DNA of 64,000 nt from an uncultured Clostridia bacterium. GTDB taxonomy: Bacteria; Bacillota; Clostridia; TANB77; CAG-465. A program made the translations under genes and the position numbers. How positions within the stretch are numbered: the stretch's first letter is position 1; each line of letters opens with the position of its first letter. Of the stretch, positions 19,109 to 39,578 are shown one piece after another. Below the pieces are notes generated by a model. The model did not search any database and was not told where the DNA came from. It was given only the letters and a program-made list of their open reading frames with translations. The stretch is taken from assembly GCA_934169925.1 (NCBI GenBank), contig CAKPOO010000003.1:62847-126846 (forward strand), written 5' to 3'.

Positions 19109-20719
19109 ATGGCCAGTGTTTTAGGTATATTTGTAAGTAGTAATGTTATAAAATATGCAAAAATTTCAGAAGAAAGTGGTAAAAAACTTAAACTTGAAGA
19201 TTTTGGCGTAAGATTTGTTAAAGGAACTCAAAAGGAAACAATAAGAAGTATTATTGAAGAAACTAATTCTCAAAAGATTCCTATAGCAATCAATCCACAA
19301 GGCTCAAAATACATAAACTATGTAATGTTTGATCAGGCACAAGGTAGAAATGTAATGGCTGACGTTGCAAAAATGGAATTTGAAGCTTGGTGCGAAAAGA
19401 ATGCAAAATCTCCAGAAAAATATTCATATATTTATAAGGTTGCAGAAGTAAAAAATAATGAGAATAGATATAATGCAGTTTTGAATTTCATAGAAAAATC
19501 AAAGCTTGAAGAATGTTCTGATCTAGGGGGATACAAAGCTGATAATATTTTACCTGCTCAGTTTTCTATTAATAGATTAGTTCCTCAAGATGAGAAAAAT
19601 TATATGCTTGTAAATTTAGATGAAGCTTTATCTATTTGTGTTATTGTCGAAGGAAAGCTTTTAGAACTTAAATACTATGATATTGGTATGAAACAGATTT
19701 TAGATGACTTTTCTTTAAAACTTGGCTCTTATCAAAAAGCGTATGAAGCTTGCAAACAATTAAATGTTTATTCTGATGAAAGCACTAATAATAATCATGA
19801 ACTTGAACAAATTGCAGAACCAGTACTTCAAGAAGTGCTAAGAAATGTTGCAATCGTACTTAGTAAAAACAGAAATGAAATTGAAAAAGTATATATTACA
19901 GGTAATGGTATAGTATTTACAAATATGGATATTTTATTTAAAGAATATCTAAATATAAAATGTGAAATATTAAAACCAGATTTTATTCAAGATACAAGTG
20001 ATGTAAGAAATGTAGCTGAAATGCTAGAAACAGTTCAAGCTATGGCTTTAGCAGTTGAAACTCTTTCGCCTGTTAAAGAAAATTTGACTTTCTCACCAAA
20101 AGATGCAAAATCAAAATCAATGTTTGCATCTAGTGCTAAGCCTAAAAAATTACCAAAGAGAGAAAAAAGTAATGAAGATAGAAAAGAAAAAGAATTAAAT
20201 CTTCCAAGAAAAATTTATGATGCTTTGGTTTGTTCAAGTATTGTTATGATACTTGTCGTAATAGCATATAGCATTTTTGGTATAATGTATTCAAATAATA
20301 TAAATACAATGATTAAGAAAATTGACCAAAAAACAAATGAAATTACAACAGCAAAATCAGAAATTGATTCTGATATAACTTATATCTTAAATAATACTGC
20401 TAAATATAAAGTGGTTAATGATCAAGTAAATGACTACATTAATAACACAACAATATCACAAGTTAGATCAAAAAACATATATAATGTAGCAGCATTTATG
20501 CAAAGAATTGTAAAAATAATCCCTAACAATGTACAATTAAAATCAATTAAATCAGATGAAAATAAACATGTTACAATATCAGCTCAATCTGAAAGTTATT
20601 CATCTCTTGGATATTTCTTATCTGAATTGAAATTAAGTGGTACATTAAATAACATTGAGGTTAATACAGTTCAAAATGGTACAACAACAGTGGTTGAGAT
20701 AGGTGGTGATTTACCATAA
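19109..20719 (+). CDS. pilM: Type IV pilus assembly protein PilM (actin-like ATPase domain) fused to a PilN-like TM plus periplasmic region
   Basis: ORF 19046..20719. Probable ATG at 19109 after aaggag. The N-terminal about 340 aa has a PilM/FtsA-like architecture, followed by a TM (VCSSIVMILVVIAYSIFGI) and a coiled-coil periplasmic tail. Lies next to pilO, pilins, pilB, pilT and pilC. Confidence 0.65.
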   Translation: MASVLGIFVSSNVIKYAKISEESGKKLKLEDFGVRFVKGTQKETIRSIIEETNSQKIPIAINPQGSKYINYVMFDQAQGRNVMADVAKMEFEAWCEKNAKSPEKYSYIYKVAEVKNNENRYNAVLNFIEKSKLEECSDLGGYKADNILPAQFSINRLVPQDEKNYMLVNLDEALSICVIVEGKLLELKYYDIGMKQILDDFSLKLGSYQKAYEACKQLNVYSDESTNNNHELEQIAEPVLQEVLRNVAIVLSKNRNEIEKVYITGNGIVFTNMDILFKEYLNIKCEILKPDFIQDTSDVRNVAEMLETVQAMALAVETLSPVKENLTFSPKDAKSKSMFASSAKPKKLPKREKSNEDRKEKELNLPRKIYDALVCSSIVMILVVIAYSIFGIMYSNNINTMIKKIDQKTNEITTAKSEIDSDITYILNNTAKYKVVNDQVNDYINNTTISQVRSKNIYNVAAFMQRIVKIIPNNVQLKSIKSDENKHVTISAQSESYSSLGYFLSELKLSGTLNNIEVNTVQNGTTTVVEIGGDLP

Positions 20720-21414
20720 TGGTTGAAAATAAAAAAAGCTTAATTGCTATAATTGTTTTTGCAGTTTCTTTGATTTTATTAATAGTTGTTTTAAGTGGTG
20801 GTTTATCATCACTTGGTATAGTATCTCTAAAAGGAATAGGTGCTAAAAGAAATGATTTAGTAACTGCTGAAAACAATTACACATCTAAAAAAGCTTCATA
20901 TGATAGTTCTTTTGAAAATATTGAAACAGCAGAAAAAAATTATGATGCACAAAAGAAAAAATATGATTCTATTAGCGATGAAACAGTAAATGTTATAAAA
21001 AAATCAGCTAGTAATGAAAAATATAGTATCGAATATATGTGGATTAAACTTGGTAACTATGCAAAAAAAGATAATTTATCAATAGTAATTGTAGAACCAG
21101 GAAATGATTCAAGTGATACTTCTAGTAGTACAACTACTTCTACTACAACAAGTGATACAGTAAGTTTAGATAATACTACTACAAAAGAAACTACAGTGGC
21201 AACTGCAAAAAGTAGTGAAACTACACAAACTTCTAATGGTGAACCTTTAAAAATTAAAGTAGAAGGTAGTTATTTAAATATTGCAGATTTTATATTTGCA
21301 TTAGAAAGTGATAGTGAACTTAAATTTAGAATAGATAATATTTCAATGGAATATGTATCAGGTACTACAATATCTACTACATTTGAAGTTAAAAATGTAA
21401 CTATCTCTAAATAG
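20719..21414 (+). CDS. PilO-like pilus assembly protein (bitopic, coiled coil, Ser/Thr-rich linker)
   Basis: 231 aa with an N-terminal TM, a coiled-coil region and a poly-Ser/Thr stretch. Start codon overlaps the pilM/N stop. Confidence 0.5.
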   Translation: MVENKKSLIAIIVFAVSLILLIVVLSGGLSSLGIVSLKGIGAKRNDLVTAENNYTSKKASYDSSFENIETAEKNYDAQKKKYDSISDETVNVIKKSASNEKYSIEYMWIKLGNYAKKDNLSIVIVEPGNDSSDTSSSTTTSTTTSDTVSLDNTTTKETTVATAKSSETTQTSNGEPLKIKVEGSYLNIADFIFALESDSELKFRIDNISMEYVSGTTISTTFEVKNVTISK

Positions 21415-21426
21415 AAAGGATGAAAA

Positions 21427-21789
21427 ATGGATAAGAAATATATATTAACATTTAGTATTTCAGTATTAGTATTAAGTTGTGTTGTTCTTTTATGTTTAAC
21501 ATTTTTAACACCTCAACAAACAGTTAATATAAATAGTTCATTAAAAGAGTATAACGGAATTAATAAAAATGATTATGCTTATACTCAAACTAAAGATATT
21601 AATGTTGATAATTTAGTAACTGAATATACAATTACAAACAATGAAATTTCTAAATTTAAAGGAAATTATCAATATGTTCCTGGTAATACAAATCCATTTT
21701 CTCCAGCTTCTGAATTATATGATGAAGATGGAAATTTGAAGAATAATACTAATTCAGGAAGTAGCTCAAGTAGTACAGCTGGAAAATAA
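21427..21789 (+). CDS. Hypothetical bitopic protein in the Tfp locus (possible PilP-like or minor component)
   Basis: 120 aa with an N-terminal TM. Confidence 0.35.
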   Translation: MDKKYILTFSISVLVLSCVVLLCLTFLTPQQTVNINSSLKEYNGINKNDYAYTQTKDINVDNLVTEYTITNNEISKFKGNYQYVPGNTNPFSPASELYDEDGNLKNNTNSGSSSSSTAGK

Positions 21790-21799
21790 GGAGTAAAAA

Positions 21800-22267
21800 A
21801 TGAGTTCTGACAAAAAAATGAAAGTGATAATAGGTATTCTTATTGCTATAATAATAGGAATAGTACTATTTATCACATTAACAGCAAAAACAAACAACGC
21901 AAAATTTGTAGACGATTTAATAAATACTCAAGCAAAAGTTTCAAAATATATAGGTCAAATTGAATCTGAAACTTTTAATGCTTATACAGAAGAGGAAATA
22001 ATATTAGGAAAAACAAATGAAGATAAGATAAAGAATATAAACGAAAAAGAATTAATACCTCTTGTAGATGAAGATAATAAAGTTGAAAATGGTACAGTTA
22101 AATATTATCCTATAAATGATGAAAATTTAAAAACACAATTTGGAATTGATTTATCTGAGTATTCAGAAATAAAATGGTATATATCTACTAATGGATATGT
22201 AAAAGTTAAATTAGAATCAAAACCAAAGTGGTGGTCTGCTAATTTTAATAGTTTAATTATTAATTAG
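21800..22267 (+). CDS. Hypothetical bitopic protein in the Tfp locus
   Basis: 155 aa with an N-terminal TM (VIIGILIAIIIGIVLFITL). Confidence 0.35.
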   Translation: MSSDKKMKVIIGILIAIIIGIVLFITLTAKTNNAKFVDDLINTQAKVSKYIGQIESETFNAYTEEEIILGKTNEDKIKNINEKELIPLVDEDNKVENGTVKYYPINDENLKTQFGIDLSEYSEIKWYISTNGYVKVKLESKPKWWSANFNSLIIN

Positions 22268-22326
22268 GTAAAAACATATATAATGTTTTTATATATATTT
22301 AGATTTTTTTAAGGGAGGTAAATTAT

Positions 22327-22896
22327 ATGAAAAATTCTAAAAAAGGTATTTCTTTAATAGTATTAGTTATAACAATCATCGTTATAATTATACTAGCTGC
22401 AGCAGTTATATTAACTATGCAAAAATCAAATCCTATTGCTGACGCAAGAACAGCAGTAGAAAAAGAAGATTACACAGAAGCACAAAATGCTTACAATATG
22501 TGGTTATCAAAAGTTATGGTAAAACAACTTGATACTGTAACATTCACTGGTTGGATTGGTGATATTTCAGATTTTAATGGTAAGACAAATGGTCATAGTT
22601 CATATTTAACTGATGGTAAAATAAATTCTATAACAACTAATGATTCATCATCAACTGCAACAACTCCACCAATAGTATCAACAGTAGGATTTGCAACTAG
22701 TTCACTTGCTAAATTAAATAGTGAAGTTATAACTAATTATGTTTCAACAGTAGATATTTCAAAATTAGGATTACCAGAACAAGTTAAAGCTATTTATGTA
22801 AAAGATAACAAAGTTATTGGATTATACAAAAATTCTACAGTTAGTTTCTTAAATCCTACTACTGATGTTATAACTGTTGATCAAACAATTGGTTAA
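22327..22896 (+). CDS. Type IV pilin-like protein, paralog 1 (class III-like signal KKG|ISLIV..., lacks Glu+5)
   Basis: 189 aa. Short basic leader ending in Gly followed by an approximately 25-residue hydrophobic helix. Residues 1-72 and the last 60 aa are nearly identical to the next ORF. Confidence 0.55.
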   Translation: MKNSKKGISLIVLVITIIVIIILAAAVILTMQKSNPIADARTAVEKEDYTEAQNAYNMWLSKVMVKQLDTVTFTGWIGDISDFNGKTNGHSSYLTDGKINSITTNDSSSTATTPPIVSTVGFATSSLAKLNSEVITNYVSTVDISKLGLPEQVKAIYVKDNKVIGLYKNSTVSFLNPTTDVITVDQTIG

Positions 22897-22919
22897 TTTA
22901 AAAATTATATAGGAGGAAA

Positions 22920-23513
22920 ATGATGAAAAATTCTAAAAAAGGTATTTCTTTAATAGTACTTGTTATAACAATCATCGTTATAATAATTCTTGCTGCAGCA
23001 GTTATATTAACTATGCAAAAATCAAATCCTATTGCTGATGCAAGAACTGCAGTAGAAAAAGAAGATTACACAGAAGCACAAAATGCTTACAATATGTGGT
23101 TATCAAAAGTTATGGTAAAACAACTTGATACTGTAGCTTTCAATGGTTGGATTGCAGCTGATGGTATTACAATGAGCACATATGCAGATACTGCAAAAGG
23201 TGGTGCAACTGGAGCTAATGGCAAAAGATTAAGTGATGGATATATTAAATCTCTAGATACAACTAAAGATGCAATTGATATAGACAAAACAATTACAGTT
23301 GGTTTTGCTACTAGTTCAAATGCTAGATTAAATAGTGATGTTGTAAATAATTTAGTAAGTAAAGTAACAATTTCTCAATTAGGATTACCAGAACAAGTTA
23401 ATGCTATTTATGTAGTTAATAATAAAGTTATTGGTTTATATAAAAATTCTACAATTAGTTTCTTAGATGTAGGTACTGATACAATAACTGTAGATCAAAC
23501 AACAACTAAATAA
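22920..23513 (+). CDS. Type IV pilin-like protein, paralog 2
   Basis: 197 aa. N-terminal 72 aa about 97% identical to paralog 1; conserved C-terminal block VGFATSS...LGLPEQV.AIYV..NKVIGLYKNST.SFL; divergent core. Confidence 0.55.
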   Translation: MMKNSKKGISLIVLVITIIVIIILAAAVILTMQKSNPIADARTAVEKEDYTEAQNAYNMWLSKVMVKQLDTVAFNGWIAADGITMSTYADTAKGGATGANGKRLSDGYIKSLDTTKDAIDIDKTITVGFATSSNARLNSDVVNNLVSKVTISQLGLPEQVNAIYVVNNKVIGLYKNSTISFLDVGTDTITVDQTTTK

Positions 23514-23582
23514 TTAAACATAGGTGAATTTTATGAAATAACTGTCGTTAGCAACATAAAATTTAAAGGATGAGTAATTTTT

Positions 23583-23631
23583 AAAGACATATACATATAT
23601 TCAATATGTGTATATGTCTTTAACCTTATAT
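23583..23631. promoter_or_regulatory. Near-perfect 22-bp-arm palindrome (hairpin or operator)
   Basis: aaagacatatacatatattcaatatgtgtatatgtcttt has one mismatch and no clear U-tract. It lies between the pilin genes and the pilD-remnant gene. Confidence 0.5.
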
Positions 23632-23723
23632 GTATTTGATATATTATATATTATGTATTTGTACATATTTTAGAATACATCTTTTTAAATGTAGTGTAAA
23701 ATGTGGATAAATAAGGAGGATAT

Positions 23724-24134
23724 ATGATTGTATTCTTAAATGTAATTTTAATTATTTGTATGTTTGTAATGGGATCTTTGTTTGGAAGTTTCTTTTCACT
23801 TGCAACATATAGATTACCTAGACATCAAGATATAATTGCTACTAGATCGTATTGTCCAAATTGTAAACATAGATTAAATTTTTTCGATTTAATACCTGTT
23901 TTTAGTTTTATATTTTTAGGTGATAAATGTAGGTATTGTAAACAAAAAATTAGTCCTAGATATTTTTTACTTGAAGTTTCTAATGGTTTACTGTTAGTTA
24001 TTTTATATCTAATTTTTGGATATACTATTAAACTTGCAATTATTTGGATTATTTATTCTTTTATTTTTGTTATTATTGGAGCTAAAATAATGGAAACAAA
24101 AATGTCAGATGAAGAGAAAAAGGAAGTGGAAAAG
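23724..24134 (+). CDS. Prepilin peptidase (PilD) N-terminal Zn-finger domain only; no A24 catalytic domain; in frame with the downstream pilin
   Basis: GSLFGSFFSLATYRLP...CPNCKHRL...LIPVFSFIFLGDKCRYCKQKISPRYFLLEV matches the PilD N-terminal domain, including its Cys tetrad. The region carrying the two catalytic Asp residues is missing. Confidence 0.6.
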
Positions 24135-24521
24135 ATGAAACTTTCAAAAAAATCTGGTGTGTTTATATCAGAACTTGTAATAGCTATAGTGTTATTTGCA
24201 ATTTTAATGATTTCAGTATTTACAATTTCAAGAAATTATACTAAAAATGCAACAGAAACAATTTTAAAATCTAATGCAAATGTAATTGCAGTAAAAAATC
24301 TTGAAATGTGTCTTGCAACGAAATATGATAAACTTGCATCATATACTTTACAAGAAAAGTTTCAAGATGTTACATATTCAGTAAATGTTAAAGTTGATTC
24401 TGTTTCAGATACTGATTTTTCAAAAAAGGATATAGTAAAAAAAGTTGAAGTAGAGGTAAGTTATATGCAAAATGGAGTAAAAAAGACACAAACTATTTCA
24501 ACACTAAAAGGTAAGGTGTAA
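24135..24521 (+). CDS. Prepilin-type minor pilin (MKLSKKSG|VFISELV..., canonical Glu+5)
   Basis: Internal ATG at 24135 within ORF 23724..24521. Class III signal with G|xxxxE and a hydrophobic helix. Confidence 0.55.
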   Translation: MKLSKKSGVFISELVIAIVLFAILMISVFTISRNYTKNATETILKSNANVIAVKNLEMCLATKYDKLASYTLQEKFQDVTYSVNVKVDSVSDTDFSKKDIVKKVEVEVSYMQNGVKKTQTISTLKGKV

Positions 24522-24524
24522 AAA

Positions 24525-24995
24525 ATGAAAAAAGGTATTACAATGCTTTCTTTAGTAATTTATGTTGTTTTATTTTTTGCATTTTCTGCAATTGCAATTT
24601 CTGTTTCTACGAATATGAATTTTAGGACATTATCAGAAAAAGGAATTATTTATTGCAATGAAGAGTTACAAAAATTACAATATAATTTACTAAATAGTGC
24701 TAAAAACAGTACATCTTGTGATATTATACAAAATACTTTTGTTTTTAGTAATGGTGATGAATATGTTTTTGATAGCAGTAATAAAAAAATATATAAAAAT
24801 GGAGGAACTCTTATTGATTCAATATCTAGTTGTTCTTCTATATCTGTATCAGAACTTAAGTCTACACCTGAAAATTTTGTATCAAATATAGACAAAGATG
24901 CAGAATATGTATGTTTAAATGTTGAATTTTCAAAATATAATCAAATTTTAAATACAGATTTATTTTTCAAGATAGGAGATGATACAGTTGAATAA
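24525..24995 (+). CDS. Minor pilin-like protein (MKKG|ITMLSLV..., no Glu+5)
   Basis: 156 aa with a pilin-like N-terminal helix and Cys residues in the C-terminal region. Confidence 0.4.
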   Translation: MKKGITMLSLVIYVVLFFAFSAIAISVSTNMNFRTLSEKGIIYCNEELQKLQYNLLNSAKNSTSCDIIQNTFVFSNGDEYVFDSSNKKIYKNGGTLIDSISSCSSISVSELKSTPENFVSNIDKDAEYVCLNVEFSKYNQILNTDLFFKIGDDTVE

Positions 24996-25209
24996 ATTAA
25001 AAAATATTTCAAAATTAAAAGGCTCTGGAATTTTGGTAGTAATTTTATCAGCTATTGCTTTTTCGATTTATTCAATGAGTGTTTTTTCAGAATCTAAACA
25101 TTTTAGTTTGATATTTAGTAAGTATGAAAAAAGTATATCAAATTATTATGAAAAAAATGTAAATGATGTAGATGGATTTTATGATTATATTTTAAAGTTA
25201 AATAAATAA
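24979..25209 (+). CDS. Small pilin-like protein
   Basis: 76 aa; LKGSGILVVILSAIAFSIYSMSVF is a pilin-like helix. Confidence 0.3.
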   Translation: MIQLNKLKNISKLKGSGILVVILSAIAFSIYSMSVFSESKHFSLIFSKYEKSISNYYEKNVNDVDGFYDYILKLNK

Positions 25210-25212
25210 TAG

Positions 25213-26868
25213 ATGGGAGTGTATGTTAAAATGTTTGAAAATGTTAGAGAAAAAAAGAGTCCAATAGGACTAGAGTTTATTAAACAAGGATTACTTACAG
25301 AATCTCAAGTTGATAGAGTTCTTGAATATCAAAGAGAACACAAAGAATTAAAATTTGCTGAAATTGTTGATGTTCTTGATATGTGTAATAAACAAAAATT
25401 ACTTGAAATTTTATCAGAAAAAATTAAAGTAACTATGGAACCACTAGAAGGAGATTTAGATATAAATCCTGTAGAATATTTACCAAGAGATATAATTATA
25501 AACTATAGAGTTATACCTTTTGATTTAGTTGGAAAAACTTTAAAAGTTGCTTTTTCTGATCCACTTGATGCAAACCGTGTAAGAGAAGTAGAACTTTTAC
25601 TTATGAACCAAGGTTACGATATGGAGATTTATGTTACATTATATACATCTATAATGAAACAAATTTCAAATTTAAAAAATGTTGGTACAAAATATGTTAA
25701 TAAAGAAGAAAAAGATGTAACTAAATTAATTGATAATATTATTTTAACAGGTATTGAAAAAAGAGCAAGTGATATTCACTTTGAACCAATGCAAAATAAA
25801 ATAAGAGTAAGATTTAGAATAGATGGTCAACTTGTAAATATAACTGAACTTCCAAAAGAAAGACAAGAACTTATCGCAGGAAGAATTAAGTCTATTTCTA
25901 ATATGTATCAAGAAATTCAAAATGACCAAGATGGTAGTATTGATACTTTTGATAACTATAGTATCCGTGTATCTAGCCAAAAAAATGTTAACGGAGAAAA
26001 GTTTGTTCTAAGACTTTTAAAGAAAAATACAGATGCAAAAGATTTATTTGAACTTGGATTTTTCAATGATAAAGAAACTATTGAAAAAGCATTTAACAAG
26101 AAAAATAGTATAATTCTTGTCTGTGCTCCTACTGGTGAAGGTAAAACTACAACTTTATATAGTGTTCTTGAATATTTAAATAGACCAGAAATAAACTTAA
26201 TTTCAATTGAAAACCCAGTTGAAAGAAGAATACCTGGTGTAAACCAAGTTGAAATTGGTGCAAATATAACATTTGCATCTGCATTAAGAACAGTTTTAAG
26301 ACAAGATCCAGATATAATTCTTGTTGGTGAAATACGTGATGAAGAAACTGCAAAAATAGCAATTGAAGCTGGTCAAACAGGTCACTTAGTTTTATCTACA
26401 ATACATACAATTGATGCTGTTGAAGCTATAACAAGACTTAGAAAAATGGGAATTTCTGATTATGATGTATCAGCAACACTAGTAACATCTATATCAGAAA
26501 GACTAGTAAGACGTTTATGTCCAAAATGTAAAAGACCTCATACTTTTACAGAAGATGAATTAAAATATATTCAAAGAGCAGAAAAAATTTCTGGAGTTAA
26601 TTTTGATTTAGAAAACGCACAACTTTTCGAACCAGTTGGTTGTGAATATTGTGATAATATTGGTTATTATGAAAGAATAGGTATATTTGAATTGTTATCT
26701 TTAGATGAGTATTTAAAAGATATGATTTCAAGTGGAAGATCAACTATTGATATTCGTAAATATGCAAAGGAAAATACAGGATATGAACCATTAGTTGTTG
26801 ACGGTATAAGAAAAGTATTAGAAGGAATTACTACAATAGATGAATTAAAAACAAAAATAACTCTATAA
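25213..26868 (+). CDS. pilB: Type IV pilus assembly ATPase PilB (GspE family)
   Basis: 551 aa. N-terminal GspE_N-like domain, Walker A CAPTGEGKTTTL, tetracysteine motif CPKC...CEYC, His box. An alternative ATG lies at 25231. Confidence 0.85.
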   Translation: MGVYVKMFENVREKKSPIGLEFIKQGLLTESQVDRVLEYQREHKELKFAEIVDVLDMCNKQKLLEILSEKIKVTMEPLEGDLDINPVEYLPRDIIINYRVIPFDLVGKTLKVAFSDPLDANRVREVELLLMNQGYDMEIYVTLYTSIMKQISNLKNVGTKYVNKEEKDVTKLIDNIILTGIEKRASDIHFEPMQNKIRVRFRIDGQLVNITELPKERQELIAGRIKSISNMYQEIQNDQDGSIDTFDNYSIRVSSQKNVNGEKFVLRLLKKNTDAKDLFELGFFNDKETIEKAFNKKNSIILVCAPTGEGKTTTLYSVLEYLNRPEINLISIENPVERRIPGVNQVEIGANITFASALRTVLRQDPDIILVGEIRDEETAKIAIEAGQTGHLVLSTIHTIDAVEAITRLRKMGISDYDVSATLVTSISERLVRRLCPKCKRPHTFTEDELKYIQRAEKISGVNFDLENAQLFEPVGCEYCDNIGYYERIGIFELLSLDEYLKDMISSGRSTIDIRKYAKENTGYEPLVVDGIRKVLEGITTIDELKTKITL

Positions 26869-26881
26869 TTTAGGAGGAAAA

Positions 26882-27979
26882 ATGGAAGCATTAGATTCAA
26901 TTTTGCAAAAAGCACTATCTTTAGGTGCTACAGATATTCATATTATTGTTGGTCAATTACCAATTTATAGAATAAGACGTGAACTTGTTTATGATCAATC
27001 AAAATTACCAATGTCAAAATCTACTATTTTAAAAATAATGGAGTACTTTTATGAAAATTATCCAACTTTAAAAGATGATTTTGAAGAAGATAAACAAGTT
27101 GACTTTACTTATTCATACATGGAAAATAGATTTAGAATTAATATATCTTTATCAAAAAGTAATCCTACTTTTTCTATTAGGGTTATACCTAATGGAAGTA
27201 TAAAAGTTAGAGATTTAGGATTAATTGATATAATAAATAAGATGAGAACTATTCAAAGTGGTTTAATCTTAGTTACAGGTAAAATTAATTCTGGAAAAAC
27301 TACAACTATGAATGCATTCATACAAGAAGTAAATAAATCTGATAAGAAAAAAATTGTTACACTAGAAGATCCAATAGAATATGAACACATATCTCAGGAA
27401 TCTGTTGTTATTCAAAAAGAAATAGGAAAAGAACTTGATGTAAAAGATTATAAATCAGGTCTTATAAACCTACTTAGAGAAGATGCTGATATTGCCGTAA
27501 TTGGAGAAATAAGAGATAGAGAAACAATGGACGTTGCTTTAGATCTTGCAGAATCAGGGGGACTTGTTGTAGGTACACTTCATACTCGTTCTTGTGGTGA
27601 AACATTAGAAAGAATTCTTTCTTTATATGATGGTAGTGAAAAAGCTGCTATAAAAAATACTTTGTCATCTGTTTTAAAAATGGTAATTTCTCAAAAATTA
27701 ATCATAAGTAAACAAAATGAATTACTTATGGTACCAGAAATAATGATGGTAAACACTGTATTAGCAGCTATAATACGACAAGAAAAGTTTAATATTGGTG
27801 ATATAGAAGATTCTATACATTCACAAAATGATATAGGATGTGTTAGTTTTGAACAATCTTTTACAGATCTTTATATAAGAAATTTAGTTGATTTAAAGAC
27901 TATAAAAGAAAATGTTGATCCAGAAAGATTTAAAATTATTAAAAATCTAATAATAAGTTCTGGTGTATCACTTGAGTAA
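26882..27979 (+). CDS. pilT: Twitching-motility / pilus retraction ATPase PilT
   Basis: 365 aa. LVTGKINSGKTTT (Walker A), GEIRDRETM (Asp box), VVGTLHT; length typical of PilT. Confidence 0.8.
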   Translation: MEALDSILQKALSLGATDIHIIVGQLPIYRIRRELVYDQSKLPMSKSTILKIMEYFYENYPTLKDDFEEDKQVDFTYSYMENRFRINISLSKSNPTFSIRVIPNGSIKVRDLGLIDIINKMRTIQSGLILVTGKINSGKTTTMNAFIQEVNKSDKKKIVTLEDPIEYEHISQESVVIQKEIGKELDVKDYKSGLINLLREDADIAVIGEIRDRETMDVALDLAESGGLVVGTLHTRSCGETLERILSLYDGSEKAAIKNTLSSVLKMVISQKLIISKQNELLMVPEIMMVNTVLAAIIRQEKFNIGDIEDSIHSQNDIGCVSFEQSFTDLYIRNLVDLKTIKENVDPERFKIIKNLIISSGVSLE

Positions 27980-28025
27980 TTTTTTTATTTATAATATAAT
28001 GAATTTATGTGGAAGGAGATAAAAG

Positions 28026-29381
28026 ATGCCAAGTTATAAATATAGAGTAATATATGAAGATGGAAAAATTGGTAGAGGCAGAATACTTGCTAAAAGTAAG
28101 GCTCATGCTATTGAAAGTTTAAAAAATGATAATGTTCAACCTGTATCTATTCAAAGACAGAATGATCCACATAAGAGATTTAAAAAAATTGATTATAAAA
28201 GATTAGTAAGATCTCAAATTATGAAAAATCAGAATTCGAGAGAAAAACATACTCAAAAGGAAAAGATTGATTGGAAAAACTTAACTTTAAGAGACTTAAA
28301 AAAATTAGAATTTCATCCTTTTAGACATGTTACTAGTAAAGATATAATTTCTTTTGTTAATAACTTTTATATATTAAAAAAGGCAAAATTTAATAATGTT
28401 CAAGCTTTAGAAGCTTTATATAATGGTGTAACAAATCCTGCTTTCAAATCTATAGTTGAAGATTTATTAATAGGAGTTCAAGATGGTGAAAAAATATATA
28501 AGATAATGATGAGTTATCCTAAAGTTTTCCCACCAATATTTGTTAATTTCATAAAAGTTGGTGAAGAGTCTGGTACACTTGATAGTGCACTTATATATGC
28601 AAGAGATTATGTAGAAAGTTCTATGGCTTTAAAAAAGAAAATAAGAGCGTCTGTTATTCCAAGAGTTTTACAATTCTTTGGTATAATTATCATGATGTGC
28701 GTAGCTGTTGTTATTGGTGTACCGATGTTACAAGATGTTTATGACATGTTTGATTCATCTGCTGAAATACCAGCTGCTACAATGGGACTTTTAAATGCAG
28801 TTAACTGGTTAATTGCAAATTGGTATTGGGTAGTACTAGGAATTGGTGTTGTAGTATTTGGTTTCTTAGCTATTATAAGTACGACAAGAGGCAGATATAA
28901 TTGGGATAAGTTCTTATTTAGGTGTCCAGTGCTTGGAAATGTTATAAGGAATATAACAATTGAGAAGTTTTTTCTTGCAATGCTTCTTAACTTAAAAAAT
29001 GGTTTAAGATTACAAGAAAGTTTAGAGATATCAAAAACTGTTACAAACAATCTATTTTTCTTATCAACAGTAGAAATTGCAAAAGCAAATGCTATAACAG
29101 GTGAATCTTGGATTACACCTTTTGTGGATAATAAAATATTTACACCTATGATGTCACAAATGGTATCAGTAGGTATGAAAACAGATATTGTTGAAATGAT
29201 AGAGAAAGTAAATGTATATATAAGACAAGAAATTGATGAATCAGTTGCAAAATTTGTTAAAGTTTTACCTGATATTACATATCTTTTTGTTGGTATAGCA
29301 TTGATTGCCTTTGTTATAACAATTGTTGTTCCAATAATTGGAGTATACATGGGAAGTTTCATAACAATCGATAGTTATTAA
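28026..29381 (+). CDS. pilC: Type IV pilus inner-membrane platform protein PilC (GspF family)
   Basis: 451 aa with two T2SF-type repeats separated by TM helices and a typical N-terminal cytoplasmic domain. Confidence 0.75.
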   Translation: MPSYKYRVIYEDGKIGRGRILAKSKAHAIESLKNDNVQPVSIQRQNDPHKRFKKIDYKRLVRSQIMKNQNSREKHTQKEKIDWKNLTLRDLKKLEFHPFRHVTSKDIISFVNNFYILKKAKFNNVQALEALYNGVTNPAFKSIVEDLLIGVQDGEKIYKIMMSYPKVFPPIFVNFIKVGEESGTLDSALIYARDYVESSMALKKKIRASVIPRVLQFFGIIIMMCVAVVIGVPMLQDVYDMFDSSAEIPAATMGLLNAVNWLIANWYWVVLGIGVVVFGFLAIISTTRGRYNWDKFLFRCPVLGNVIRNITIEKFFLAMLLNLKNGLRLQESLEISKTVTNNLFFLSTVEIAKANAITGESWITPFVDNKIFTPMMSQMVSVGMKTDIVEMIEKVNVYIRQEIDESVAKFVKVLPDITYLFVGIALIAFVITIVVPIIGVYMGSFITIDSY

Positions 29382-29389
29382 TATATAAG

Positions 29390-29427
29390 CACATTTGTAA
29401 TTTAAAGTTACAAGTGTGTTTTTTTGT
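29390..29427 (+). terminator. Rho-independent terminator after pilC
   Basis: Hairpin cacatttgtaatttaaagttacaagtgtg followed by ttttttt. Confidence 0.6.
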
Positions 29428-31020: not shown

Positions 31021-31824
31021 ATGAAAAAATTAAGTAACTTTGATTTAAAAGTATTTGCAATTATTTTTATGATTATAGATCATATTGGATACTTTTTTAG
31101 TTTTGCTTTAAGTAGTGATGTATATATAACTTTTAGAATAATTGGAAGATTGGCTATGCCAATCTTTGCTTATTTAGTAGCAGAGGGAATCTATTATACA
31201 AAAGATATAAAAAAGTATATAGCAAGACTTGGAATTTTTGCTATAGTAACTCAAGCATTACTTATTTTAATAGATTATATACAAGTAAAAATTGGAAATA
31301 TAAAACTTGCAAATATATCAAGTAGTGCAAATATATTATTTTCCTTTATGTTTGCTGCTATAGTCATTATGCTTATTTGTAAGTTTATAGAAAAAGCAAA
31401 AATAACATTTTTTGTAAAAAATAAAAATTTAAAGTTAAAAGATATATTAAGAAATGTAGTAGTTATGTTTTTTGAATTTTTAGCTGTTATATTTATTTTT
31501 GTATTATTTAAAATTTTAAAATTTGATTATGGAATAAATGCTTTTTTACTTGTTGTTTTAATATCAATTATAAATAAAATATATAAAATAAGAAATATAG
31601 AAAGAATAGGAAATGTAAGTTATTATATACTTGTATTTTTAAGTTTGTTTTTACTTTGTTTTCCTCTTAAAAATTATTCATATATAAGACTATTTTCTAT
31701 TGTATTTATTTTATTTTATAGCGGAAAAAAAGGAAAATATAGCAAATATTTATTTTATATTGCATATTTGTTACAATATGTAATCATTTCAATTAGTTCT
31801 ATAATTGTATTCATGCATTTTTAA
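31021..31824 (+). CDS. TraX-family membrane protein (F-pilin acetylase family)
   Basis: 267 aa. N-terminal LKVFAIIFMIIDHIGYFF matches the TraX family signature; polytopic. Confidence 0.65.
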   Translation: MKKLSNFDLKVFAIIFMIIDHIGYFFSFALSSDVYITFRIIGRLAMPIFAYLVAEGIYYTKDIKKYIARLGIFAIVTQALLILIDYIQVKIGNIKLANISSSANILFSFMFAAIVIMLICKFIEKAKITFFVKNKNLKLKDILRNVVVMFFEFLAVIFIFVLFKILKFDYGINAFLLVVLISIINKIYKIRNIERIGNVSYYILVFLSLFLLCFPLKNYSYIRLFSIVFILFYSGKKGKYSKYLFYIAYLLQYVIISISSIIVFMHF

Positions 31825-33378: not shown

Positions 33379-33795
33379 ATGAAAAGTTCAAAAAAATTCT
33401 TATTAAGAATAATACCAGTTTTTGTTGTTTTAAGCATAATATTAACTTCAGTAACAGGAGTTTTTGCATTTGGTAATTTTAATGATATTTCTGAGATTAA
33501 TAAAGGTGCAGGAACTACTGGTGATGGTGTTACATCTGTTAATGGTGCTGTAAATAGAGTATGGAAAACTGTTGTAACTGTTTTACAAATATTAGCAGTT
33601 GCTGCAATAGTTATAGCTGGTGTAAGATATATGTTTGCTTCAGCTGATACAAAAGCTGATATAAAAGGACAAACAGTTGGACTTGTTGTTGGTGCTGTAC
33701 TTGTTTTCGGTGCATCATTTATCGTTCAATTTATTATTAATGTTACTTCAGATGTTACAGGGGTAAAAGAATCACAACAAACACAACAACAATAA
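33379..33795 (+). CDS. VirB2/TrbC-like T4SS pilin paralog 1
   Basis: 138 aa. Signal peptide followed by two hydrophobic helices (TVVTVLQILAVAAIVIAGVRYMF / VGLVVGAVLVFGASFIVQFII) separated by a short charged loop, which is the VirB2 topology. Confidence 0.55.
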   Translation: MKSSKKFLLRIIPVFVVLSIILTSVTGVFAFGNFNDISEINKGAGTTGDGVTSVNGAVNRVWKTVVTVLQILAVAAIVIAGVRYMFASADTKADIKGQTVGLVVGAVLVFGASFIVQFIINVTSDVTGVKESQQTQQQ

Positions 33796-33844
33796 TAATG
33801 TTTTTATAAAATCAGGCTTGACCTGATTTTTTTATTAAAGATAG

Positions 33845-34234
33845 GTGAGATTTATGAATAAATTTAAAATCTTTGCAATAGTCATACTTGTTATTACTTT
33901 ATTTTTAACATTATATCCAGTGGTGTATGCAGATTTTGGAGAAGGTTTTGATCCTAGTAAGGTTGCATATGATAAAGTGTTAGAGGATGATACAGGTGTT
34001 GGAAAAATTACAAGCCCTATAAACAAAATTTTTAATACAATAGTTAGAATTTTACAAATTTTGTCTATTGCAGGAATAATATTAACAGGTCTTAGATATA
34101 TGCTTACAACTGATACTTTAAAAAAAGCAGATTTTAAAGAATCTACTATGTATTTGATAATAGGTATGGTTATAGTATTTTGTGCAAGTACAGTAATTGA
34201 ATTTATTGTAAAAGCTGCAGATGAAGTAATATAG
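33845..34234 (+). CDS. VirB2/TrbC-like T4SS pilin paralog 2
   Basis: 129 aa with the same architecture; the conserved motif IL.ILQI(L/V)S(I/V)A...I.TGL(R/K)YM is shared with paralogs 1 and 3. Confidence 0.55.
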   Translation: MRFMNKFKIFAIVILVITLFLTLYPVVYADFGEGFDPSKVAYDKVLEDDTGVGKITSPINKIFNTIVRILQILSIAGIILTGLRYMLTTDTLKKADFKESTMYLIIGMVIVFCASTVIEFIVKAADEVI

Positions 34235-34254
34235 TAAAAGGAGGATTAAGATAC

Positions 34255-34629
34255 ATGAATAATAGTTACAAAATATTATTTAAAATAATGGCTATTGTAT
34301 TTATAGGTATCATTATTGCAAGTAATGTTAGCATTGTTTTTGCAGATGATCTTTCTGATTTTAACAGTACAGATTTTAATGCTGGAGAAGAAAGCGTAGA
34401 AAAGATTGATACTGCCGTTCTTAAAATTTGGAAAACAGTTGTTACAATTTTACAAATTGTTTCTGTTGCAGCTGTTATTATTACTGGACTTAAGTATATG
34501 TTTGCATCATCAGAGAAAAAAGCTGACATAAAATCTATGTCACTTGGATTTATTGTTGGGGCAGTTATTGTCTTTGGATCTTCGTTTGTTGTATCCTTTG
34601 TTATAAAAGTTGTACAAGATACAATATAA
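34255..34629 (+). CDS. VirB2/TrbC-like T4SS pilin paralog 3
   Basis: 124 aa, same architecture. Confidence 0.55.
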   Translation: MNNSYKILFKIMAIVFIGIIIASNVSIVFADDLSDFNSTDFNAGEESVEKIDTAVLKIWKTVVTILQIVSVAAVIITGLKYMFASSEKKADIKSMSLGFIVGAVIVFGSSFVVSFVIKVVQDTI

Positions 34630-34731
34630 TAAGCTTAAATATTAATAAAAAATCTACTTTTTCATTAAAAAAAGTAGATTTTTTTTTACTTTATTGATAT
34701 AATTTGTATGTGAAAATAGAGAGGTTATTTT

Positions 34732-35700
34732 ATGAACAAAAAGATATTTAGTATAGTTATTATGAGCATAGTATTTTTTGCTATGATAGGTGGCAATGTA
34801 TTTGCATGGGTAGAGTCTGATGACGTATCAAGTTTAAGGAGTGATGAAATAGCAGAAAATATAAAAAGTAGTTTTAATAGTAAAAATATAGATGATTTTT
34901 TTTGCTATGTAAATTATGGATATAGTGATTTATCATCTGAGCAAAAAGAAGAAGTTGATCCATTGATAGAATATTCAGTAAAAAATTATAAAAGTCAGCT
35001 ACTAAGTGCTACAAATAAATTAGATCCTACTGAAGATCCAATAAGTTCACAACTTGATAGTGTTTGGAATAAATTTGAAGGTGGAAAGAGCTTTACTTCT
35101 AATGCGTCATCTGGTTCAAAGTCAGACGATGATAAGAAAAAAGCTGCTGATGATTGGTTTGGTCAAGCTACTTCTTGGTGGGGAGATGCTAAAAAAAGTG
35201 GATTTACAATTCCACAAGAAGCTCAGGATGTAATAGATCAATTTACCGATATGATTAACATTATAGGTACAACTTTAATATTTGTTGCAACAATTGTTCT
35301 TGGAATTAAATTTATATTTGGAAGTATTGATGGAAAATCTGAAGCAAAGGAAGATATGATTACTTTACTTGTAGCTTGTGTATTTTTCTTTGGATGGAAT
35401 GGAATAATGGGGATTCTTTTAAATAATGCTCATGATGACATTGCAATAGTTGAAGGTGAAACTAGTTACGTAACTGTAATTTCTAAAATGTTAACTGTAT
35501 TTAGAACAATTTCAAATTGTTTACTTGTTGTTGGTGTTATTTATGTAGGTATAAAATTTATATTTGCTGGTGCACAGGGAAAAGCAGATTTAAAAGCAAA
35601 ATCTGGTTTTTTTATAATTGGTATTATACTTGCATTTTGTACAGTAAATGTTCTTACTTTCTTATCAGATGTTATAAATCAAGTATTAACAAAAACATAA
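34732..35700 (+). CDS. Secreted/membrane protein with an N-terminal soluble domain and two tandem C-terminal VirB2-like hairpin modules
   Basis: 322 aa with a signal peptide. The C-terminus carries two copies of the ...IKFIFG(S/A)..GK..(A/L)K... TM-hairpin motif found in the three small pilins. Confidence 0.45.
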   Translation: MNKKIFSIVIMSIVFFAMIGGNVFAWVESDDVSSLRSDEIAENIKSSFNSKNIDDFFCYVNYGYSDLSSEQKEEVDPLIEYSVKNYKSQLLSATNKLDPTEDPISSQLDSVWNKFEGGKSFTSNASSGSKSDDDKKKAADDWFGQATSWWGDAKKSGFTIPQEAQDVIDQFTDMINIIGTTLIFVATIVLGIKFIFGSIDGKSEAKEDMITLLVACVFFFGWNGIMGILLNNAHDDIAIVEGETSYVTVISKMLTVFRTISNCLLVVGVIYVGIKFIFAGAQGKADLKAKSGFFIIGIILAFCTVNVLTFLSDVINQVLTKT

Positions 35701-35727
35701 GGAATATAAGAATTAGGGGGTTAATAT

Positions 35728-36129
35728 ATGGGAAAATCTTATTATGTTCCACGTAGTGTTAAAGGTGAGACAAGAATACTTATTATATTTACAGTTAAGT
35801 CATTTATTTTTACTCTTGCTTTTGGACTTATAGGTGGTGGAATTTGGGCTTTAGGCTCAAATCTATTTGGAATGGGAATGTTTCCAGGAATTGCAGTTAC
35901 AATTTTATTTGGAGGATTTGGTTATTTAATTGGTACAGCTAAAATACCTGATTCACCAATAATGGGACCATTTCAAAAAGCTGGTGGTGAATATGTTAGT
36001 GAAATAATTAAAAGATTTATCACTTTTAAATCAAGAAAAAAAATATATTTATATAATTACAATAGAGAAAATATAATTAATAATAAAAATAATAAAAATA
36101 GTAGTAATAACAAAGGAGGAAAAAAATAA
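35728..36129 (+). CDS. PrgI-family (VirB3-like) small membrane protein
   Basis: 133 aa. N-terminal YYVPRSVKGETRILIIFTVKSF fits the PrgI-family N-terminal pattern; two TM helices; sits just upstream of the VirB4 gene. Confidence 0.55.
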   Translation: MGKSYYVPRSVKGETRILIIFTVKSFIFTLAFGLIGGGIWALGSNLFGMGMFPGIAVTILFGGFGYLIGTAKIPDSPIMGPFQKAGGEYVSEIIKRFITFKSRKKIYLYNYNRENIINNKNNKNSSNNKGGKK

Positions 36130-37514: not shown

Positions 37515-37537
37515 TTTAACTTTGGGGGATTAGATAT

Positions 37538-39550: not shown

Positions 39551-39578
39551 AAATTAAATTTAAAATGGATGAGGATTT

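What the first reader, a model, noticed from the sequence alone, without database searches (positions are those of the whole stretch)
19109..29381. Type IV pilus locus with atypical features: pilins lacking Glu+5, and a pilM-pilN fusion
PilB, PilT, PilC, PilM/N and PilO are all present, so this is a bona fide Tfp locus. The two large pilin-like genes and two smaller ones have class III-like leaders ending in Gly but lack the near-universal Glu at +5 (G|ISLIV..., G|ITMLS...). Only one small pilin (24135..24521) has the canonical G|VFISE. PilM and PilN are encoded as one polypeptide. This raises the question of how the pilins are processed and assembled.
Basis: seen in the sequence. Interest (0 to 1): 0.6.

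Follow-up and report, generated by a model that had tools for sequence, protein, structure and literature searches.

The report
Pilus locus with a peptidase-less PilD
An uncultured gut Clostridia lineage has a conserved type IV pilus locus whose main pilins lack the usual Glu5, and whose pilin-processing enzyme PilD has lost its protease half and is fused to the one minor pilin that keeps Glu5, so how the pilins are cut and assembled is open.

Summary
The locus (19109-29381, + strand) is real. It encodes a PilM-PilN fusion, a weak PilO-like protein, two bitopic proteins, two mosaic major-pilin paralogues, two small pilins, PilB, PilT and PilC.

The pilins do lack Glu+5. The major pilins read KKG|ISLIV and the small ones G|ITMLS and G|SGILV.

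The "canonical small pilin" (G|VFISE) is not a separate gene. It is the C-terminal module of a 265-aa ORF (23724-24521). The N-terminal half of that ORF is the PilD methylase/zinc domain (PF06750, E=7e-29). No A24 peptidase domain is present.

This fusion is conserved in over 120 protein clusters and 47 of the 80 related genome loci fetched, all uncultured gut Clostridia. Gly-1, the acidic +5 residue and four Cys are invariant. Its pilin module folds like the GspI minor pseudopilin.

A sister group keeps a full-length PilD homologue with a degenerate active site, followed by a separate D5 pilin. Each locus examined has one acidic-+5 pilin, always attached or adjacent to PilD.

The most likely mechanism is leader cleavage in trans by an unlinked A24 peptidase. 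This could not be tested here. The PilM-N fusion is already known from C. difficile.

Verdict: new variant of a known kind, interest about 0.65.

The parts
19109..20719 (+). pilMN: one 536-aa protein with a PilM-like cytoplasmic part, a TM segment and a PilN domain
   Evidence: PF05137 PilN at aa 463-525, E=3.5e-7, found in 24 of 32 relatives. TIGR01175 pilM E=2e-5. Family profile against PDB PilM 3jc8 E=0.004. Syntenic in 72 loci.
20719..21414 (+). PilO-like bitopic protein (231 aa) with a Ser/Thr-rich linker
   Evidence: Conserved position after pilMN in all loci. No family hit of its own. PF04350 PilO appears in only 2 of 33 relatives at E~0.006. No PDB hit.
21427..21789 (+). Conserved 120-aa bitopic membrane protein of unknown role
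   Evidence: No family hit. Syntenic homologue in 44 related loci.
21800..22267 (+). Conserved 155-aa bitopic membrane protein of unknown role
   Evidence: No significant family hit. Syntenic homologue in 32 related loci.
22327..22896 (+). Major pilin paralogue 1 (189 aa), MKNSKKG|ISLIVLVITIIVIIILAAAVIL, Val at +5
   Evidence: Strong RBS (AAGGGAGG) upstream. 647 relatives share a near-invariant N-terminus and variable C-terminus. AF2 model shows helix 10-66 plus a beta domain, pLDDT 78.8. No N_methyl HMM hit. No significant fold match.
22920..23513 (+). Major pilin paralogue 2 (197 aa), same N-terminus, mosaic with paralogue 1
   Evidence: 72% aa identity to paralogue 1. The 5' 232 nt are 96% identical and the 3' 208 nt 81% identical, with a divergent middle.
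23581..23623 (+). Terminator-like hairpin (20-bp stem) after the major pilin genes
23724..24521 (+). PilD-N::pilin fusion (265 aa). aa 1-125 hold TM1, a four-Cys zinc/methylase domain, TM2 and TM3. aa 126-145 form a K/E-rich cytoplasmic linker ending KKSG. aa 146-265 form a GspI-like minor pilin starting VFISE.
   Evidence: PF06750 at aa 15-97, E=7e-29, and no PF01478. The architecture is conserved in the 120 best clusters and 47 genome loci. C44, C47, C69, C72, G145 and E150 are invariant in 119 sequences. AF2 model pLDDT 82.9. Foldseek top hits are XcpV/EpsI.
24156..24173 (+). Predicted prepilin-type cleavage motif inside the fusion: G145|V146-F-I-S-E150
   Evidence: Gly-1 is invariant in 47 of 47 genome loci and 119 of 119 clusters. 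Position +5 is E (41) or D (6).
24525..24995 (+). Minor pilin (156 aa), MKKG|ITMLS, Ser at +5
   Evidence: Gly-1 invariant in 57 of 57 relatives. Weak profile hit to a Geobacter pilin N-terminus, E=0.1.
24979..25209 (+). Small pilin-like protein (76 aa), KLKG|SGILV, overlapping the preceding gene by 17 nt
   Evidence: Gly-1 invariant in 48 of 48 relatives. The same overlap occurs in L001.
25213..26868 (+). PilB extension ATPase with an MshEN-like N-terminal domain
   Evidence: TIGR02538 E=1.3e-120. NF053729 c-di-GMP motif at aa 23-69, E=0.0036. PF05157 and PF00437 in the L001 orthologue.
26882..27979 (+). PilT retraction ATPase
   Evidence: TIGR01420 pilT_fam E=4.1e-82, aa 4-340.
28026..29381 (+). 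PilC platform protein
   Evidence: PF00482 T2SSF E=1.4e-23, two stretches. GspF E=8e-51 and PilC E=2e-45.
29387..29421 (+). Terminator-like hairpin closing the locus

Best explanation
**What it is (shown).** This is a conserved T4aP-type pilus system with a PilT retraction-ATPase gene, in an uncultured, low-GC, spore-forming gut Clostridia lineage. The lineage is probably GTDB order TANB77, from memory of record names only. The system has been remodelled in three linked ways:
1. The major pilin keeps a class-III-type leader ending in Gly and a canonical-looking alpha1N, but has Val instead of Glu at +5.
2. The bifunctional prepilin peptidase PilD has been dismantled. In this lineage the A24 protease domain is deleted. 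In the sister lineage it is present but has no GxGD motif.
3. The retained methylase/zinc domain (three TM helices) is fused through a cytoplasmic K/E-rich linker to a GspI-like minor pilin. That pilin is the only subunit of the locus with an acidic +5 residue.

**How it works (inferred).** An unlinked A24 peptidase without a methylase domain removes the leaders in trans. It could be TadV-like, for example one serving the Tad-like cluster known in TANB77. It cuts after the invariant Gly of the four pilin families and of the fusion. Cutting the fusion releases the GspI-like pilin and leaves the methylase module in the membrane. The GspI-like pilin and the two small pilins then prime a filament of E5-less major pilins, extended by PilB/PilC/PilMN and retracted by PilT. 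The methylase domain either N-methylates only the E5/D5 pilin or acts as a docking module. The hydrophobic filament core does without the N1-E5 salt bridge, as in archaeal type IV filaments.
For: - **Machinery.** PilB, PilT, PilC and PilN domains are present.
- **Conservation.** The gene order is identical in 80 genome loci.
- **E5-less major pilin.** The N-terminus KKG|ISLIVLVITIIVIIILAAAVIL is near-invariant over 120 listed relatives with 3-35-aa leaders and 104-326-aa lengths. V5 occurs in 60 of 60 and A5 in 35 of 35.
- **Paralogues.** There are one to six tandem, mosaic paralogues per locus.
- **Fusion.** It carries PF06750 only and is conserved full length in 120 clusters and 47 loci. Four Cys, G145 and E150 are invariant, and the linker varies in length and sequence. 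No conserved internal start exists.
- **Fold.** The pilin module is one long helix plus a 4-stranded sheet. Its best PDB matches are the GspI-type pseudopilins XcpV and EpsI, with probability 0.98-1.0 and target TM-score 0.55-0.70.
- **Sister group.** It has a full-length PilD homologue that aligns to canonical PilD over 234 columns (hhalign probability 99.8%). Asp1 is kept (114 of 120), GxGD is absent, and the nearest acidic position is D55/E40/Q10 of 120. A separate G|xTxxD pilin follows it.
- **Cleavage site.** Gly-1 is invariant in all four pilin families, which argues for continued recognition by a prepilin-type peptidase.
- **Literature.** Peptidases without a methylase domain exist (T4cP), and a Tad peptidase can be encoded elsewhere in the genome. 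TANB77 carries a Tad-like cluster.
Against: - No A24 peptidase was found in the 64-kb window or within 10 kb of the locus in any of 82 related loci.
- The rest of the genome could not be searched, so the trans-peptidase is purely inferred.
- The published TANB77 Tad-like cluster lists no peptidase either.
- In P. aeruginosa (my knowledge of the literature) Glu5 is needed for methylation and assembly, so an E5-less major pilin is not expected to assemble in a canonical machine.
- The major pilin matches no pilin HMM and no solved pilin fold.
- No expression or protein data exist for this uncultured clade.
- Membership in TANB77 is from memory of record names, not a tool result.
Confidence: 0.55

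Rival explanations
1. Peptidase-independent or non-A24 processing. No A24 peptidase acts on these proteins. The 265-aa fusion stays intact as a membrane-tethered, GspI-like nucleator or anchor. Its Glu5 pairs with the first or last subunit. The E5-less pilins are either cut by a different, unknown protease or assembled in a non-canonical way.
For: The protease domain is deleted here, and its active site is degenerate in the whole sister group. This suggests the clade stopped relying on PilD catalysis long ago. No A24-type motif occurs near any of 82 loci. Loss of Glu5 in the major pilin co-occurs with the loss of the peptidase. The topology of the fusion suits a tethered pilin: TM3 ends in the cytoplasm, followed by the linker and an outward pilin helix.
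Against: Gly-1 preceded by Lys/Arg is invariant in four independent pilin families and in the fusion, although leaders and linkers vary freely. That pattern is the signature of a recognised cleavage site. Leaders of 20-35 aa in some paralogues could not be buried in a filament core. Unlinked prepilin peptidases are common in monoderms.
Confidence: 0.2
2. An ordinary type IV pilus with an annotation illusion. The pilin module is translated on its own from an internal start, an intact bifunctional PilD lies elsewhere in the genome, and the upstream PilD-N reading frame is a tolerated remnant of a deletion.
For: In the window an ATG (24135) with a GGAAGTGG-like sequence precedes the pilin module. 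The sister group has the acidic-+5 pilin as a separate gene.
Against: The N-domain is under strong purifying selection, with 32 invariant columns including the four Cys in 119 sequences. The frame is open from the first start through the pilin in all 47 loci despite variable linkers. No conserved internal Met or SD exists, and several species have no Met in the linker. The major pilins lack Glu5 regardless.
Confidence: 0.1
3. The machine is not a surface pilus. It is a short pseudopilus used for protein secretion or DNA uptake, as proposed for the second T4P gene set of C. perfringens.
For: The fused pilin resembles the T2SS pseudopilin GspI. PilC scores best against GspF. A T2SS-like role for clostridial T4P genes has been proposed (abstract of PMC11580942).
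Against: PilT is present and conserved. The major pilin is hypervariable outside alpha1, multiplied up to six-fold in tandem, and mosaic. Orphan paralogues are even fused to a DGR-diversified lectin-like domain. All of this is typical of surface-exposed adhesive filaments.
Confidence: 0.12
4. The locus is a decaying, non-functional relic in a reduced genome.
For: The peptidase domain is lost. One relative (L045) has the fusion split into two pieces.
Against: All 12 genes are intact here, and order and reading frames are kept across 80 species-level genomes. PilB is 59-77% identical within the closer group. Motifs are invariant.
Confidence: 0.03

Closest known systems
Clostridial T4aP-type loci (C. 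difficile primary cluster pilA1-pilB1-pilC1-pilMN-pilO-pilV/U/K with pilD and pilT; C. perfringens)
   Same: Monoderm T4aP machinery with PilB, PilT, PilC, PilO and a fused PilMN, plus several minor pilins, in a spore-forming Clostridia host.
   Different: From my knowledge of those systems, they have a complete PilD (methylase plus A24 peptidase) and Glu5 in the major pilins. Here the peptidase domain is absent, the methylase domain is fused to a minor pilin, and the major pilin has Val5.
Bifunctional prepilin peptidase PilD (IPR010627 + IPR000045; peptidase family A24A)
   Same: The N-terminal 125 aa match PF06750 (E=7e-29), with TM1, the four-Cys cytoplasmic loop and two further TM helices.
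   Different: No PF01478 domain and neither catalytic Asp. A pilin replaces the five C-terminal TM helices. The converse truncation (peptidase without methylase: TadV, FlaK, PibD) is known. I found no description of a methylase-only form.
GspI / XcpV / EpsI minor pseudopilins (PilI of the PilHIJK core set)
   Same: The pilin module of the fusion is about 120 aa, with one long alpha1 and a small 4-stranded sheet, and has Glu5. These are its best structural matches. It lies next to two further small pilins, as in priming complexes.
   Different: Sequence identity is only 13-20%. It is covalently joined to a membrane enzyme domain. It is the only subunit with Glu5, whereas in known systems only the tip cap lacks Glu5.
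Archaeal type IV pilins/archaellins with FlaK/PibD
   Same: Class III signal peptides without Glu5 and without N-methylation, cut by a peptidase that has no methylase domain. Filaments assemble without the N1-E5 salt bridge. This is from my knowledge, partly supported.
   Different: The machinery here is bacterial T4aP-type (PilT, PilMN, PilC), and alpha1N is clearly bacterial-like (I-S-L-I-V-L-V-I...ILAAA).
Tad-like pilus cluster of TANB77 (Kim et al. 2024, PMC11680825)
   Same: Probably the same uncultured gut clade. It is a clade-specific type IV filament locus with unrecognised pilin-like proteins and no peptidase listed in the cluster.
   Different: It is a different locus and system (CpaB, TadZ, CpaE, CpaF, TadBC). 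That paper does not describe the PilB/PilT/PilC locus studied here.

Membership tests
Type IVa pilus machinery | PilB-type extension ATPase | tested here: met
   TIGR02538 E=1.3e-120, aa 146-547. The score is below NCBI's equivalog cut-off but is the best hit.
Type IVa pilus machinery | PilT retraction ATPase | tested here: met
   TIGR01420 E=4.1e-82 over the full length. 276 bits against a 319-bit cut-off.
Type IVa pilus machinery | PilC/GspF platform protein | tested here: met
   PF00482 in two copies, E=1.4e-23. GspF and PilC models at E=1e-45 to 1e-51.
Type IVa pilus machinery | PilM-PilN-PilO alignment subcomplex | tested here: inconclusive
   PilN is clear. PilM is weak. PilO is supported only by position and two marginal hits.
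Type IVa pilus machinery | Prepilin peptidase with an A24 domain | tested here: not met
   No PF01478 in the locus. No GxGDxK motif in the window or in 82 related loci.
Prepilin peptidase PilD (A24A) | N-terminal methylase/zinc domain with four conserved Cys | tested here: met
   PF06750 E=7e-29. C44, C47, C69 and C72 are invariant in 119 sequences.
Prepilin peptidase PilD (A24A) | C-terminal peptidase domain with two catalytic Asp (the second in GxGD) | tested here: not met
   The domain is absent here, and the Asp1-equivalent position 121 is variable. In the sister group Asp1 is kept but GxGD is missing.
Type IV pilin (class III signal peptide, IPR012902/PF07963) | Short basic leader ending in Gly, followed by about 21 hydrophobic residues | tested here: met
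   Met in all five pilin modules of the window. Gly-1 is invariant in relatives.
Type IV pilin (class III signal peptide, IPR012902/PF07963) | Glu (or Asp) at +5 | tested here: not met
   Val (both major pilins and the 76-aa protein) or Ser (156-aa pilin). Met only by the pilin module of the fusion, E150.
Type IV pilin (class III signal peptide, IPR012902/PF07963) | Recognition by the family HMMs | tested here: not met
   No N_methyl or TIGR02532 hit at E<=1 for any of the five.
Type IV pilin (class III signal peptide, IPR012902/PF07963) | Lollipop fold: long N-terminal helix packed on a beta-sheet | tested here: inconclusive
   Met for the fusion module. The major pilin model has helix 10-66 plus beta strands but no significant match to solved pilins.
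GspI-type minor pseudopilin | Small alpha1 plus 4-stranded-sheet fold similar to EpsI/XcpV | tested here: met
   Foldseek against PDB: 9a1f_R E=0.013, probability 1.0, target TM-score 0.66. 2ret, 5vtm_V, 5bw0 and 3cfi have target TM-scores of 0.55-0.70. E-values are modest.
GspI-type minor pseudopilin | Forms a tip complex with GspJ/GspK-like partners | not tested
   The two adjacent small pilins are candidates. No complex modelling was possible.
PilMN fusion of Clostridia | PilM and PilN encoded in one polypeptide | tested here: met
   Precedent in C. difficile.

The most novel reading that the evidence does not exclude
This clade may assemble a retractile type IV pilus without any A24 prepilin peptidase. 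The pilins would be matured by an unknown enzyme or not at all. The PilD methylase domain, permanently tethered to a GspI-like Glu5 pilin, would have taken on a new structural or catalytic role as the nucleating or anchoring subunit of a filament made of Glu5-less pilins.
Probability: 0.17. Interest if true: 0.85.

Novelty: new variant of a known kind. Interest (0 to 1): 0.65.

Why it matters
Two long-standing puzzles of type IV filament biology are why Glu5 is nearly universal and what N-methylation of pilins is for. A 2023 review still calls methylation "a mystery" (PMC10191384).

This clade offers a natural experiment on both:
- The major pilin has dispensed with Glu5.
- Exactly one minor pilin keeps an acidic +5 residue.
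- The methylase domain has been separated from the protease and physically attached to that one pilin.

This makes specific predictions testable by co-expression and mass spectrometry. For example, methylation may be needed only for the priming GspI-like subunit, or Glu5 may be needed only at initiation.

The hosts are abundant, uncultured human and animal gut Clostridia. If they are TANB77, their pilins have already been linked to immunotherapy response (PMC11680825), so knowing which surface filaments they really build has practical interest.

The work also shows that standard pilin and PilD HMMs miss this whole family.

Tried and rejected
1. **Alternative cleavage register giving Glu5.** Rejected. 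The alpha1N aligns residue for residue with the canonical FTLIEL... and places Val at +5.
2. **Internal translation start for the pilin module.** There is no conserved Met or SD.
3. **A24 peptidase hidden in the locus or window.** Pfam was run on all locus proteins and on selected membrane ORFs of the window, and a GxGDxK motif scan covered the window and 82 loci. Nothing was found.
4. **TraX (31021-31824) as an N-acetylase neutralising the pilin N-terminus.** This is attractive, but TraX is not linked to the locus in any relative. It more likely belongs with the T4SS-like genes downstream.
5. **Sister-group C-terminal domain as unrelated to A24.** Rejected. hhalign gives 99.8% over 234 columns.
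7. **PilO and PilMN against PDB by sequence.** Only PilM 3jc8 appeared, at E=0.004.
8. **Melville & Craig 2013 review.** It is not held in the library.
9. **Literature on methylase-only PilD or pilin fusions.** Nothing was found.
10. **Plasmid collection.** Only N-domain matches to canonical A24 peptidases appeared.
11. **Weak Foldseek hits of the fusion to sugar N-methyltransferases.** TM-scores are too low to use.

Full report
**1. Checking the observation**

The window is about 25% G+C. It carries spoIIIA sporulation genes just upstream of the feature. Twelve co-directional ORFs fill 19109-29381 on the + strand.

The motor and platform proteins are clear:
- PilB: TIGR02538, E=1.3e-120.
- PilT: TIGR01420, E=4.1e-82, full length.
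- PilC: two T2SSF domains, GspF E=8e-51.

The first ORF (536 aa) has a PilN domain at its C-terminus (PF05137, E=3.5e-7). Its N-terminal part is weakly PilM-like:
- TIGR01175 gives E=2e-5.
- A profile of 32 orthologues hits M. xanthus PilM (3jc8) as the best PDB match, at E=0.004.
- PilM_2 is found in 2 of 32 orthologues.

So the PilM-PilN fusion is real. The 'PilO' label for 20719-21414 rests on position and two marginal hits among 33 orthologues.

- MKNSKKG|ISLIV in both large genes.
- MKKG|ITMLS in the 156-aa gene.
- KLKG|SGILV in the 76-aa gene.

None matches the N_methyl or TIGR02532 models. The alpha1N still aligns position by position with the canonical FTLIELMIVVAIIGILAAIAIP. The register leaves Val or Ser at +5 with no alternative.

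**2.

The 'canonical small pilin' (G|VFISE) is not a gene of its own. It is residues 138-265 of a 265-aa ORF (23724-24521). Residues 15-97 of that ORF are the bacterial A24 N-terminal domain (PF06750, E=7e-29). This is the methylase/zinc module of PilD. There is no peptidase domain, PF01478.

This is not a local accident:
- The best 120 database clusters are 255-299 aa long and 49-100% identical.
- They cover the query nearly full length and carry PF06750 only.
- In an alignment of 119 of them, the four Cys, G145 (position -1) and E150 (position +5) are invariant.
- The cytoplasmic linker varies in length and sequence.
- No conserved internal Met or Shine-Dalgarno site precedes the pilin module. 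Several species have no Met in the linker at all.

The fusion protein is therefore the encoded product.

An AlphaFold2 model (pLDDT 82.9) shows three TM helices around the Cys-rich loop and then a linker. A 55-residue helix (144-198) and a 4-stranded sheet follow. The best PDB matches are the GspI-type minor pseudopilins XcpV and EpsI. Probability is 0.98-1.0, target-normalised TM-score 0.55-0.70 and best E-value 0.013.

**3. Comparative context**

A scan of species-representative genomes found 239 loci, of which 80 were fetched. All are uncultured gut 'Clostridia bacterium' or 'Clostridium sp. CAG:465/567/921/1219' assemblies with 24-31% G+C.

The gene order is conserved throughout:
- pilMN, pilO-like, one or two bitopic proteins, one to six major pilins, the PilD-like gene, small pilin(s), pilB, pilT, pilC.
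- The locus often lies directly after spoIIIA.

Two groups emerge (the names are mine).

*Group A* contains the window. PilB is at least 59% identical to the window's.
- It has the PilD-N::pilin fusion.
- The pilin module is G|V[FY]xxE in 41 loci and G|AINVD-like in 6.
- Gly-1 is present in 47 of 47.

*Group B* has PilB about 50% identical to the window's.
- It has a ~270-aa PilD homologue with PF06750 and a multi-TM C-terminal domain that Pfam does not recognise.
- It belongs to a family of at least 3834 proteins, whose 120 best members all carry PF06750 only.
- hhalign against five canonical PilDs fetched from the plasmid collection aligns 234 columns at 99.8% probability, so the domain is a diverged A24.
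- The first catalytic Asp is kept (D in 114 of 120, E in 6).
- The GxGD motif is absent. The nearest acidic position is D in 55, E in 40 and Q in 10 of 120.
- The PPase literature holds that two Asp are universally conserved and critical. This active site therefore looks degenerate.
- Immediately downstream lies a separate pilin gene with G|xTxxD.

In both groups the major pilin lacks an acidic +5 residue. V occurs in 60 of 60 for group A and A in 35 of 35 for group B.

In the loci examined, one pilin has an acidic +5 residue, and it is always fused to or next to the PilD-like gene. The likely history is relaxation of the protease first, then deletion of the protease domain, fusing the methylase module to the downstream pilin.

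**4. Are these still pilins that get cut?**

Gly-1, preceded by Lys or Arg, is invariant in:
- the major pilins (all 120 listed relatives, with leaders of 3-35 aa);
- the 156-aa family (57 of 57);
- the 76-aa family (48 of 48);
- the fusion.

A motif that stays fixed while leaders and linkers drift is what a recognised cleavage site looks like. Long leaders could not be accommodated in a filament core.

The major pilins behave like exposed filament subunits:
- The N-terminal ~35 residues are nearly invariant and the remainder is hypervariable.
- The two window paralogues are mosaic. The 5' 232 nt are 96% identical, the 3' 208 nt 81% identical, and the middle is divergent.
- One relative has six tandem copies.
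- A strong terminator-like hairpin follows the pilin genes, and another closes the locus.

No canonical GxGDxK motif occurs in any ORF of the window or of 82 related loci. Any peptidase must therefore be unlinked. This is known for monoderm Tad systems, and peptidases without a methylase domain are known.

The one paper that links this kind of organism to pili describes a different, Tad-like cluster in order TANB77 and lists no peptidase (Kim et al. 2024). I assign the present clade to TANB77 only from memory of how GTDB families were named after the CAG assemblies. No tool result confirms this.

**5. Mechanism**

*Shown:*
- The anatomy of the locus and its conservation.
- The fold of the fused pilin.
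- The absence or degeneracy of the protease.
- The 'one acidic +5 pilin' rule.

*Inferred (confidence about 0.55):*
- An unlinked A24 peptidase cuts all leaders, including the fusion at G145|V146.
- The released GspI-like pilin, with the two small pilins, primes assembly of Glu5-less major pilins by PilB/PilC/PilMN. PilT retracts the filament.
- The methylase domain acts only on the acidic-+5 pilin or serves as a docking module.

*Main rival (about 0.2):*
- No A24 enzyme is involved.
- The fusion remains a tethered nucleator or anchor.
- Processing is by something new.

*Other rivals:* an internal-start artefact (0.1), a pseudopilus rather than a pilus (0.12), and a decaying locus (0.03). All are disfavoured for the reasons listed under the rival explanations.

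**6. Comparison and novelty**

The system works like, and is related to, clostridial T4aP. The PilMN fusion is already known in C. difficile. It fails two defining tests: an A24 domain in PilD and Glu5 in the pilins.

The converse split of PilD, a peptidase without a methylase, is textbook. I found no description of a methylase-only PilD, of its fusion to a pilin, or of a bacterial T4aP-type major pilin family without Glu5. The absence of hits in an open-access library is not proof.

I rate it a new variant of a known kind, with interest about 0.65. It bears directly on the unexplained roles of Glu5 and N-methylation. It concerns abundant gut bacteria. It also shows that standard models miss the family.

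**7. Limits**

- The rest of the genome could not be searched for a peptidase.
- No structure prediction of complexes was possible.
- The major pilin's globular domain has no detectable structural relative.
- There are no expression data.

Noticed in passing
L088 10001-13500 (ENA human gut contig, a relative; not in the window): An orphan Glu5-less pilin paralogue with a 20-aa leader sits next to a diversity-generating retroelement. The element comprises an FGE-sulfatase/CLec-like target ORF (PF03781, E=3e-5), bAvd, a reverse transcriptase, and a VR (11108-11243) / TR (13362-13494) pair whose mismatches are A in the TR. In P0215 the pilin and the lectin-like region form one polypeptide. This clade therefore appears to have DGR-diversified type IV pilins. 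I found none described in the library; DGRs on Bacteroides type V pili are known.
   Followed up: partly
window 33379-52554: A conjugation/T4SS-like module. It has three tandem TrbC/VirB2-like pilin genes (33379-34629), a VirB4/TraG-type P-loop ATPase (37538-39550) and four paralogous ~540-aa membrane proteins with a T4SS_pilin-like segment (39579-46039). It also has a 1339-aa protein with an M23 peptidase domain (48535-52554). It is not near the pilus locus in any relative.
   Followed up: partly
window 31021-31824: A TraX-family protein (PF05857, E=5e-21). TraX N-acetylates F-pilin. I considered it as a way to neutralise the N-terminus of Glu5-less pilins. It is absent from the neighbourhood of the locus in 82 relatives and more likely goes with the T4SS-like genes.
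   Followed up: yes
window 13860-18778 and L001 1-3370: The spoIIIA operon (spoIIIAC, AE, AF, AH recognised) lies immediately upstream of the pilus locus. The adjacency is kept in about 20 related loci. No functional link was examined.
   Followed up: no
window 25213-25420 (PilB aa 1-70): PilB has an MshEN-like N-terminal domain: c-di-GMP-binding motif NF053729, E=0.0036, and PF05157 in the L001 orthologue. This hints at c-di-GMP control of pilus extension.
   Followed up: no
window 21090-21240 (PilO-like aa ~125-175): A Ser/Thr-rich low-complexity linker (SSDTSSSTTTSTTTSDT...TTQTS) lies in the extracytoplasmic part of the PilO-like protein. It produced weak mucin-like hits. It may be a cell-wall-spanning or glycosylated spacer.
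   Followed up: no
L011 6677-9841: One relative carries six tandem major-pilin paralogues with identical N-termini. Across the fetched loci the copy number ranges from 1 to 6.
   Followed up: partly
L045 9875-10818: In the closest species-level genome (65% identity) the PilD-N::pilin ORF is split into two pieces. This is a frameshift or an assembly error.
   Followed up: no
window 23724-24110 (N-domain of the fusion): Foldseek listed several SAM-dependent sugar N-methyltransferases (4oqd, 6uk5, 5bsz, 1y8c). Probabilities were 0.75-0.99, but alignments were only 58-70 columns and TM-scores very low. The hits are suggestive for a methylase domain but too weak to use.
   Followed up: no
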